This document shows, in pieces, positions 1,704 to 2,757 of a stretch of 16,366 nt of DNA. A program made the position numbers and the translations under genes. The stretch's first letter is position 1; every line of letters starts with the position of its first letter. Below the pieces are notes generated by a model that ran no database searches, was not told the origin of the DNA, and saw only the letters and a program-made list of their open reading frames with translations. This DNA is from a virus (Duplodnaviria > Heunggongvirae > Uroviricota > Caudoviricetes): the IMG/VR virus record IMGVR_UViG_2698536392_000011, one strand, 5' to 3'.

Positions 1704-2757
1704 ATGAATCTGGTGATGTCAGATATTACCCGCAACAAGCTGGGTTGCTATATGGCGAAGCAGGCGTCGCTTAACAATATCCCGGTATCTGCACTGGTAT
1801 CGCGATTTACCGTGGAACCAGCGGTGCAGCAGCGTTTTGAAAACGCCTCAAAGGAAAGTACCGAATTTACGAAAAGAATTAACGTGATCGGCGTGACCGA
1901 CCAGAAAGGCGAAAAAATCCTCCTGGACACCACCGGGCCAATTGCGCGCACGAATAGCAGTTATGACGGCATCAAACGCCGTAACCCGAATAACGTGATC
2001 GATATGAAGTCTCGTCAGTACCAGTGCGAACAGGTGAACTACGATACCTTTATTTCGTACCCACAGCTTGATACCTGGGCGGCCCACAGCGATTTTCAGC
2101 CCCGTATCAGTACACAGATCGCCCGGCAGGTAGCGCTTGATCGCATCATGATTGGCTTTAACGGCACATCCCACGCCTACGAGTCTGAATTTTCACACCA
2201 ACAAGCTGCTTCAGGACGTTAACGTGGGCTGGCTGGAGCACATCAGAACCGATGCCAGCGAGCGCGTAATGAATGACGTGACGCTGACCTCCCGCAACAT
2301 GGACAACACTGTGGCGCACGCGGGTAAGTATGCGAATGCCGATGCTCTGGTACAGGATGCGCGCTCATCCCTGCTGGATGAATGGCACAAGGAAGCTGAC
2401 GACCTCGTGGTGATTATGGGGCGCAACCTGTTTAACTCGCTGCGTCTGCCCGTGCTGAACAGCATCAGTGGCCAGAATCCCAATGCGGAATTACTTGCCG
2501 GGCAGCTCATCCTGTCATCGCGCACCATTGGCGGGCTGGGCGTGTTCCTTGCGCCGTTCTTCCCGGATGCAACGATGCTTATCACCTCGTTCAACAACCT
2601 GTCGATTTACTGGCAGAAAGGTTCAATGCGTCGCCTGATGAAAGACGAGCCGGAATACAACCGCATCGCCACCTACCAGTCCATCAATGACGCTTATGTC
2701 GTTGAAGACTATGGCAAGTGCGCGATGGTCACTGGCCTGAAGTTCGCCGACAGCTAA
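1704..2757 (+). pseudogene. N: Major capsid protein gpN, interrupted by a +1 frameshift near 2194-2200 (ORFs 1704..2222 and 2152..2757)
   Basis: AAGGAG at 1688-1693 precedes ATG 1704. The first ORF matches P2 gpN up to ...IMIGFNGTSHAYESEFSH, and the second frame resumes at NKLLQDVNVGWL (P2: MAGFNG...NPMLQDVAVGWL). P2 gpN is one ~357-aa protein; here 172 + 201 codons sit in two frames offset by one base inside the sequence cacacca. Could be a real pseudogene or a sequencing indel. Confidence 0.85.

What the first reader, a model, noticed from the sequence alone, without database searches (positions are those of the whole stretch)
2185..2210. Frameshift splits the major capsid gene N
The gpN homologue runs in one frame to ...GFNGTSHAYESEFSH and continues in the +1 frame at NKLLQDVNVGWL. 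The shift maps to a single extra base within cacacca. A capsid-less prophage would be non-functional.
Basis: seen in the sequence. Interest (0 to 1): 0.45.

Follow-up and report, generated by a model that had tools for sequence, protein, structure and literature searches.

The report
Frameshifted capsid pseudogene in decayed prophage
One extra A splits the major capsid gene of a P2-family prophage in an E. coli O165:H25/O172:H25 lineage; it is a real, inherited mutation, already flagged in the public annotation, and one of several lesions in an ordinary dead prophage.

Summary
The frameshift is real. The capsid gene (window 1704-2757) is 1054 bases, against 1053 in intact relatives. Its two halves match Pfam PF05125 at profile positions 4-151 and 150-324.

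The extra base is one A at 2188/2189 (GATTTT to GAATTTT). Removing one A restores a 350-codon ORF, and that protein is encoded intact in one public short-read assembly.

It is not a sequencing artefact. The window is E. coli 2012C-4227 (O165:H25). The allele occurs in four RefSeq complete genomes from two clades of clonal complex 119. It also occurs in further closed genomes, including one Illumina/Nanopore hybrid assembly. The exact truncated protein is recorded on 72 contigs.

The prophage is dead several times over:
- IS600 sits in the large terminase gene.
- An IS3-family element sits in the tape-measure gene.
- Two further frameshifts affect the DUF6645 gene and gpJ.
- Each clade carries additional lesions of its own.

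RefSeq already annotates this gene as a frameshifted pseudogene. I found no evidence for programmed frameshifting. This is ordinary prophage decay, of low interest.

The parts
1704..2757 (+). Major capsid gene (gpN type, P2 family), 1054 bases, a pseudogene through a +1 base insertion.
   Evidence: Intact relatives are 1053 bases. RefSeq flags it 'phage major capsid protein, P2 family; frameshifted'. The repaired protein matches PF05125 at 4-324/327, E 3.5e-116, and P2 gpN in PDB 7JW1, E 5e-82.
2188..2189 (+). The lesion: AA where intact genes have a single A (codon D162 GAT becomes GAA-T).
   Evidence: Pairwise and five-way alignments. An allele-specific string count across all fetched loci agrees.
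1704..2222 (+). Truncated product ORF: 161 native residues plus 11 out-of-frame residues (EFSHQQAASGR), ending at the premature TAA at 2220-2222.
   Evidence: This exact 172-aa product is recorded on 72 contigs in public assemblies.
2191..2757 (+). Stranded C-terminal 188 codons of the capsid gene (F163 to S350, plus stop) in the +1 frame.
   Evidence: Gene callers call a 177-aa fragment here.
1..185 (+). Right end of an IS600 copy inserted in the large terminase gene (gpP).
   Evidence: Homology to the intact DEC5E prophage starts at 186. IS600 is annotated here. Only the four CC119 RefSeq genomes share this junction.
186..689 (-). N-terminal 168-codon remnant of the large terminase gene gpP.
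   Evidence: Only bases 1-504 of the 1752-base intact gene align here. RefSeq marks it as an incomplete pseudogene.
844..1680 (+). Capsid scaffolding gene (GPO family), intact, immediately upstream of the capsid gene.
2803..3603 (+). Small terminase subunit gene (gpM), intact, immediately downstream.
5657..7535 (+). DUF6645 cargo gene, frameshifted by an extra T at about 6452 (TTT becomes TTTT). All four CC119 RefSeq genomes share it.
   Evidence: first stop at codon 274 of 626.
9583..10478 (+). Baseplate gene gpJ, frameshifted by loss of one C at 9986/9987. Found only in clade A (2012C-4227, 2013C-4830).
14931..16343 (-). C-terminal remnant of the tape-measure gene (gpT), cut by an IS3-family element just beyond the window end.
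   Evidence: only bases 1401-2808 of the intact gene are present.

Best explanation
This is a plain, non-programmed frameshift pseudogene. In the ancestor of E. coli clonal complex 119 (O165:H25 and O172:H25 Shiga-toxin producers), a P88-like (Xuanwuvirus-type, P2-family) prophage sat at the tRNA-leuZ/yecA site. It gained one extra A in codon 162 of its major capsid gene, GAT becoming GAA-T. Translation now runs out of frame for 11 codons and stops at a TAA, giving a 172-residue fragment that lacks the C-terminal 188 residues. No full-length capsid protein can be made. The mutation has been inherited vertically ever since, together with IS insertions in the large terminase and tape-measure genes and other frameshifts. 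The element is a cryptic prophage remnant, and the capsid lesion is one of several redundant inactivating hits.

Shown: the inserted base, its inheritance, the restored ORF and the co-occurring lesions. Inferred: absence of capsid protein and of particles, and the order of the lesions.
For: (1) The window is 100% identical to NZ_CP013029.1 (2012C-4227, O165:H25) at 2810254-2826619.
(2) The gene is 1054 bases against 1053, and the single gap lies at A 2188.
(3) Deleting one A gives a 350-aa protein that matches PF05125 end to end and P2 gpN in PDB 7JW1. That exact protein is encoded intact on a Logan contig from ERR8977096, next to an intact 583-aa terminase.
(4) An 81-base probe finds the +A allele in exactly 4 of 913 RefSeq complete E. 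coli genomes that carry the gene. The same four share the IS600/terminase junction.
(5) The lesions are nested phylogenetically. All four genomes share +A in the capsid gene, +T in the DUF6645 gene and both IS insertions. Clade A alone has the gpJ frameshift, and clade H alone has a gpI nonsense mutation. The clades are those of PMC10132054.
(6) That paper lists the leuZ P2-like prophage as a 'core' prophage of 40,185-40,188 bp in at least 7 closed genomes.
(7) The exact truncated 172-aa product is recorded on 72 contigs (91 index blocks). These include CP027675, AP026751 (a MinION plus Illumina hybrid assembly) and about 80 short contigs assembled from SRA runs. Every such locus fetched carries the +A string.
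(8) The nearest intact prophage, in O55:H7 DEC5E, is 99.8% identical and has every gene of this region open.
(9) RefSeq annotates the gene as 'frameshifted' in all four genomes.
Against: There is no direct protein or phage-induction data for these strains, so absence of full-length capsid protein is inferred from sequence. The zero-frame codon UUU (2190-2192) is followed by U2193, so a spontaneous +1 slip could in principle produce a full-length protein with only a D162E change. Within CC119 the gene shows no substitutions after the frameshift. Relaxed selection therefore cannot be demonstrated from the gene itself.
Confidence: 0.95

Rival explanations
1. Sequencing or assembly artefact: a PacBio indel error put a spurious A into an otherwise intact gene.
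For: 2012C-4227 was assembled from PacBio RSII reads alone with HGAP3. At least one private single-base indel in a C6 run (window 5505, seen only in 2013C-4830) looks like a possible assembly error.
Against: The site is not a long homopolymer (A becomes AA). The same base is present in four RefSeq genomes from two clades, in CP027675, in AP026751 (a Unicycler hybrid with Illumina reads) and in three short Logan contigs from separate SRA runs. The truncated product is recorded on 72 contigs. Other genomes in the same accession series (2013C-4538, 2014C-3050) carry the 1053-base form.
Confidence: 0.01
2. Recoding: the gene is still expressed through +1 ribosomal slippage at GAA-UUU-U (peptidyl tRNA-Phe re-pairing from UUU 2190-2192 to UUU 2191-2193). 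This would yield a full-length capsid protein with a D162E change, either as a programmed event or as a useful leak.
For: The slip is geometrically possible, and the predicted product differs from the intact protein only by D162E. The allele has been kept unchanged across the lineage.
Against: 909 of 913 E. coli genomes with the gene, and about 500 phage homologues, encode it in one frame, so the shifted form is derived and confined to one lineage. No Shine-Dalgarno-like stimulator lies in the 36 bases upstream. The next zero-frame codon is UCA, not a stop. From general knowledge of prfB-type +1 sites, that leaves only background slippage. A functional capsid would be useless here, because the terminase, tape-measure and gpJ genes are also broken.
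Confidence: 0.02
3. Domestication: the 172-residue N-terminal capsid fragment (or the remnant prophage as a whole) is retained because it benefits the host, for example by poisoning capsid assembly of incoming P88-like phages.
For: The truncated allele is fixed and unchanged in strains that, by their names, were isolated from about 1988 to 2013 on several continents. The upstream scaffold gene and promoter-proximal context are intact.
Against: Fixation is expected for any neutral lesion in a clonal lineage. IS insertions and other frameshifts are fixed alongside it. A different lineage carries an independent nonsense mutation (W176*) in the same gene, which fits random decay. Late genes of P2-type prophages need Ogr-type activation and are silent in lysogens (general knowledge). 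No test of function is available.
Confidence: 0.02

Closest known systems
Bacteriophage P2 gpN major capsid protein (Pfam PF05125; PDB 7JW1 chain A)
   Same: The repaired protein aligns over residues 8-349 with P2 gpN (E 5e-82), including the conserved GFNG...SD...LQDV.VGWL segment where the break lies. The gene order portal, large terminase | scaffold (O), capsid (N), small terminase (M), head completion (L) is the P2 order.
   Different: It is only about 41% identical to P2/Wphi gpN. Here the gene is interrupted at codon 162, so no full-length protein is encoded.
Escherichia phage P88 and Xuanwuvirus-type peduoviruses (for example vB_EcoM-569R5, P884B11), and the intact prophage of E. coli O55:H7 DEC5E
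   Same: The capsid gene is 92.5-99.4% identical in DNA to these phages. The window is 99.8% identical over 16 kb to the DEC5E prophage, which has the same gene content, including the DUF6645 and serine acetyltransferase cargo genes.
   Different: Those elements have a 1053-base open capsid gene and intact terminase, gpJ and tape-measure genes. The window copy has one extra A plus the other lesions.
Defective prophage pools of Shiga-toxin-producing E. coli; specifically the 'core' P2-like prophage at tRNA-leuZ of clonal complex 119 (Nakamura et al. 2023, PMC10132054)
   Same: This is that prophage: same strain, and coordinates 2795615-2835802 in CP013029 contain the window. It is conserved in length across closed genomes and vertically inherited.
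   Different: In the text and tables I could search, the paper catalogues the prophage but does not mention the capsid frameshift. The RefSeq annotation does flag it.
Programmed frameshifts of P2-family phages and of E. coli (the -1 shift in tail-chaperone genes E/E+E'; the +1 shift in prfB)
   Same: Only superficial: two overlapping frames encode one protein family, and a U-run sits at the junction.
   Different: The arrangement is not conserved among homologues, no stimulatory element is present, and it lies in a gene with no known recoding. The description of the known systems rests on general knowledge.

Membership tests
P2-family major capsid protein gene (gpN; PF05125) | Significant full-length match to the Phage_cap_P2 profile | tested here: met
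   Repaired protein: 388 bits against a cutoff of 27, profile 4-324/327. The fragments cover 4-151 and 150-324.
P2-family major capsid protein gene (gpN; PF05125) | Homology to an experimentally solved gpN | tested here: met
   PDB 7JW1 chain A (P2 gpN), E 5.1e-82, residues 8-349 aligned.
P2-family major capsid protein gene (gpN; PF05125) | P2-type head-gene synteny (Q, P divergent from O, N, M, L) | tested here: met
   Portal and terminase lie on the minus strand, then GPO scaffold, capsid, small terminase and gpL on the plus strand.
P2-family major capsid protein gene (gpN; PF05125) | Uninterrupted reading frame of about 350 codons (a functional member) | tested here: not met
   Premature stop at codon 173 of 351. 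It is a pseudogene of this family, not a functional member.
Ordinary (non-programmed) frameshift pseudogene in a decaying prophage | Close relatives carry the unshifted, intact gene | tested here: met
   909 of 913 genomes carry the 1053-base form. DEC5E is 99.6% identical and intact. The repaired protein exists intact in ERR8977096.
Ordinary (non-programmed) frameshift pseudogene in a decaying prophage | The lesion is real: reproduced in independent isolates and sequencing technologies | tested here: met
Ordinary (non-programmed) frameshift pseudogene in a decaying prophage | Other inactivating lesions in the same element | tested here: met
   IS600 in gpP, an IS3-family element in gpT, frameshifts in gpJ and the DUF6645 gene, a short gpD and a second IS600 after ogr.
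Ordinary (non-programmed) frameshift pseudogene in a decaying prophage | No full-length protein and no phage particles produced | not testable with these tools
   Needs proteomics or induction with electron microscopy on CC119 strains.
Programmed +1 ribosomal frameshift (prfB type) | Shifted gene arrangement conserved among homologues | tested here: not met
   It is confined to one clonal complex. The phage homologues listed align as a single unbroken piece.
Programmed +1 ribosomal frameshift (prfB type) | Slippery codon plus stimulators (an upstream Shine-Dalgarno-like element; a stop or slow codon in the A site) | tested here: not met
   UUU_U would allow re-pairing, but there is no SD-like motif in the 36 bases upstream and the next codon is UCA.
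Sequencing or assembly artefact | The indel is absent from independent data for the same lineage | tested here: not met
   It is present in all 14 lineage loci examined, including a hybrid assembly and short contigs assembled from SRA runs.

The most novel reading that the evidence does not exclude
The least ordinary reading the data do not exclude is that the lineage-fixed allele is not inert. Either low-level +1 slippage at GAA-UUU-U yields some full-length D162E capsid protein, or the 172-residue N-terminal fragment acts as a dominant-negative decoy against related superinfecting P88-like phages. The second would be a domesticated capsid fragment serving as phage defence.
Probability: 0.03. 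Interest if true: 0.45.

Novelty: already known. Interest (0 to 1): 0.07.

Why it matters
It matters little beyond bookkeeping. The result confirms that the P2-like prophage at tRNA-leuZ in O165:H25/O172:H25 Shiga-toxin-producing E. coli is a cryptic remnant that cannot form particles. It also shows that the public annotation 'frameshifted' reflects a true mutation rather than a long-read error.

The +A allele, the IS600/terminase junction and the clade-specific gpJ and gpI lesions could serve as simple lineage and clade markers for clonal complex 119. The nested pattern of shared and clade-private lesions is a tidy small example of stepwise prophage decay.

Tried and rejected
- I tried to fetch other CC119 closed genomes (NZ_CP027363.1 for 88-3001, NZ_AP026739.1 for JNE072951) from the E. 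coli collection. They are not held there. The count of 4 genomes in that collection is therefore a lower bound. I used the exact-protein index instead.
- Three literature look-ups failed on term syntax. One script failed on file naming.
- I searched the CC119 paper for 'yecA'. The site is listed under tRNA (leuZ) instead.
Intact genes have the identical CACACCA, and the only gap is at the A doublet.
- I considered post-inactivation drift to explain the two amino-acid differences from DEC5E (L74, P133) and rejected it. The same residues occur in an intact gene in ERR8977096.
- I considered rescue in trans by the second P2-like prophage at pflA and rejected it. That prophage has an intact capsid gene of a different, megablast-undetectable type and is itself degraded.
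- I did not run structure prediction, the large homology searches or Rfam. They could not change the verdict.

Full report
**What is in the sequence.** ORF 1704-2222 on the plus strand encodes 172 residues ending ...IMIGFNGTSHAYESEFSHQQAASGR and stops at TAA 2220-2222. The +1 frame carries ...NFHTNKLLQDVNVGWLEHIRT... through to a stop at 2755-2757. Both pieces match the Pfam family of P2-type major capsid proteins, PF05125. The match is to profile positions 4-151 (E 3.8e-49) and 150-324 (E 1e-60), so the two halves abut exactly.

**Where the extra base is.** The window is 100% identical to E. coli 2012C-4227, NZ_CP013029.1, positions 2810254-2826619. This strain is an O165:H25 Shiga-toxin-producing clinical isolate, assembled from PacBio reads alone.

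- More than a thousand complete E. coli genomes carry this capsid gene. In all but four the aligned gene is 1053 bases, against 1054 here.
- Alignment with the nearest intact copy (O55:H7 strain DEC5E) shows three substitutions and one gap. The gap falls at an A at window 2188: TCTGATTTTCAC in the intact gene, TCTGAATTTTCAC here.
- The native protein reads ...GFNGTSHAYESDFHTNKLLQDVNVGWL. This aligns with GFNGVKRAETSDRSSNPMLQDVAVGWL of P2 gpN in PDB 7JW1.
- The inserted base therefore duplicates the A of codon D162 (GAT). It is not a base in 'cacacca' (2194-2200), which is identical in intact genes.
- Deleting one A restores a 350-codon ORF that matches PF05125 end to end (388 bits, E 3.5e-116).

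**Is it a real mutation?** Yes.

- An 81-base probe across the site finds the +A form in exactly four of 913 RefSeq complete genomes that carry the gene: 2012C-4227, 2013C-4830, 90-3040 and 2013C-3492.
- Other genomes in the same accession series (2013C-4538, 2014C-3050) have the 1053-base form.
- According to Nakamura et al. 2023 (PMC10132054), the four strains fall into two clades of clonal complex 119. Clade A is O165:H25 ST119, and clade H is O172:H25 ST660.
- The exact 172-residue truncated product is recorded on 72 contigs (91 index blocks) of public assemblies. These include further closed genomes: CP027675 (88-3510) and AP026751 (JNE071324). The latter was assembled with Unicycler from Illumina plus MinION reads.
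- They also include about 80 contigs of 5-10 kb assembled from SRA runs. That these are short-read assemblies is my inference from contig size.
- Every such locus I fetched carries the +A string and none carries the intact string.

**The surrounding element.** The gene sits in a P2-family prophage of the P88/Xuanwuvirus type. Its capsid gene is 92.5-99.4% identical in DNA to phages P88, P884B11 and vB_EcoM-569R5, and about 41% identical in protein to P2/Wphi gpN. The prophage is integrated beside yecA, at tRNA-leuZ.

The 99.8%-identical prophage of DEC5E has every gene of this region open. Against it, the window copy carries these lesions:

| Lesion | Window position |
|---|---|
| IS600 in the large terminase gene, leaving a 168-codon remnant | IS end 1-185; remnant 186-689 |
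| The capsid frameshift | 2188/2189 |
| Extra T in the DUF6645 cargo gene | about 6452 |
| Loss of a C in baseplate gene gpJ | 9986/9987 |
| IS3-family element splitting the tape-measure gene | just past the window end |

Outside the window there is also a shortened gpD and a second IS600 copy.

The lesions are nested. All four RefSeq genomes share the capsid +A, the DUF6645 +T and both IS insertions. Only clade A has the gpJ frameshift. Only clade H has a nonsense mutation in gpI, G10653A. This is the pattern expected from stepwise decay during vertical descent.

The supplementary table of PMC10132054 lists this element as a 'core' P2-like prophage at tRNA (leuZ). It is 40,185-40,188 bp in at least seven closed genomes, and the entry for CP013029 spans 2795615-2835802, which contains the window.

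**Mechanism and consequence.** A one-base insertion shifts the frame at codon 162 of 350. Eleven aberrant codons follow, then a stop. The 188 C-terminal residues, more than half of the capsid protein, are not translated with the N-terminal part.

From established knowledge of P2-type phages, gpN is the only shell protein, so no capsid can form. That last step is inferred, not shown. The terminase, tape-measure and gpJ genes are also broken, so the capsid lesion is redundant.

**Alternatives.**

- *Assembly artefact:* excluded by the independent assemblies described above.
- *Programmed or useful +1 slippage:* this is formally possible. The zero-frame UUU (2190-2192) is followed by U2193, and a slip would yield a full-length protein with only a D162E change. 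However, the shifted arrangement is confined to one clonal complex. The phage homologues listed by the protein search align as a single unbroken piece. No Shine-Dalgarno-like stimulator lies upstream, and the next codon is UCA rather than a stop.
- *Domesticated fragment:* this cannot be excluded by sequence, but nothing supports it. A different lineage carries an independent TGG-to-TGA nonsense mutation (W176*) fourteen codons downstream in the same gene, as random decay would predict.

The two amino-acid differences from DEC5E (L74, P133) are not post-inactivation drift. The repaired protein is encoded, intact, on a contig from ERR8977096, next to an intact terminase.

**Comparison with what is known, and novelty.** The gene is a pseudogene member of the P2 gpN family. 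The element is the already catalogued leuZ prophage of clonal complex 119. RefSeq already labels the gene 'frameshifted' in all four genomes. I found nothing here that is new in kind.

**Verdict.**

- The finding is ordinary prophage decay and already known.
- Interest is about 0.07.

Noticed in passing
window 1-689: An IS600 copy (right end at 1-185) interrupts the large terminase gene, leaving a 168-codon N-terminal remnant at 186-689 on the minus strand. Only the four CC119 genomes in RefSeq share this junction.
   Followed up: yes
window 5657-7535: A 626-codon DUF6645 cargo gene lies between the lysis and tail genes. It is frameshifted by an extra T at about 6452 (TTT becomes TTTT) in all four CC119 genomes and is intact in DEC5E. 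Its function is unknown.
   Followed up: partly
window 9986-9987 and 10653: The lesions are clade-specific. Loss of one C in gpJ occurs only in clade A (2012C-4227, 2013C-4830). A G-to-A nonsense mutation in gpI occurs only in clade H (90-3040, 2013C-3492). Both could be used as clade markers.
   Followed up: yes
window 13701-14273 (minus strand): A serine acetyltransferase gene is inserted between the tail-fibre assembly gene and the gpU/gpT tail genes. It is intact and 100% identical to the DEC5E copy. It may be a moron still of use to the host.
   Followed up: no
window 14931-16366: The tape-measure gene is cut at about 16343 by an IS3-family element that lies just beyond the window. The other half, in the full genome, is additionally frameshifted.
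   Followed up: partly
L017-L020, positions 2501-3553: An independent knock-out of the same capsid gene exists in another lineage: TGG to TGA (W176*), in SRA and ENA assemblies with an intact terminase. The product is recorded on 14 contigs.
   Followed up: yes
L016 (Logan ERR8977096), 5376-6428: This contig carries an intact capsid gene whose protein is identical to the window gene with one A removed. It sits in a 99.2%-identical phage region with an uninterrupted terminase.
   Followed up: yes
L015 (NZ_CP013029.1 1432000-1467200): The same genome holds a second P2-like prophage at pflA. It is also degraded (two IS2 copies, a truncated replication endonuclease, a tape-measure/gpD deletion, a frameshifted cox), but its own, distantly related capsid gene is intact.
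   Followed up: partly
window 5505 (L005 equivalent): 2013C-4830 alone lacks one C in a C6 run in the DUF2570 (LysB-like) gene. This is either a private mutation or a long-read homopolymer error.
   Followed up: no
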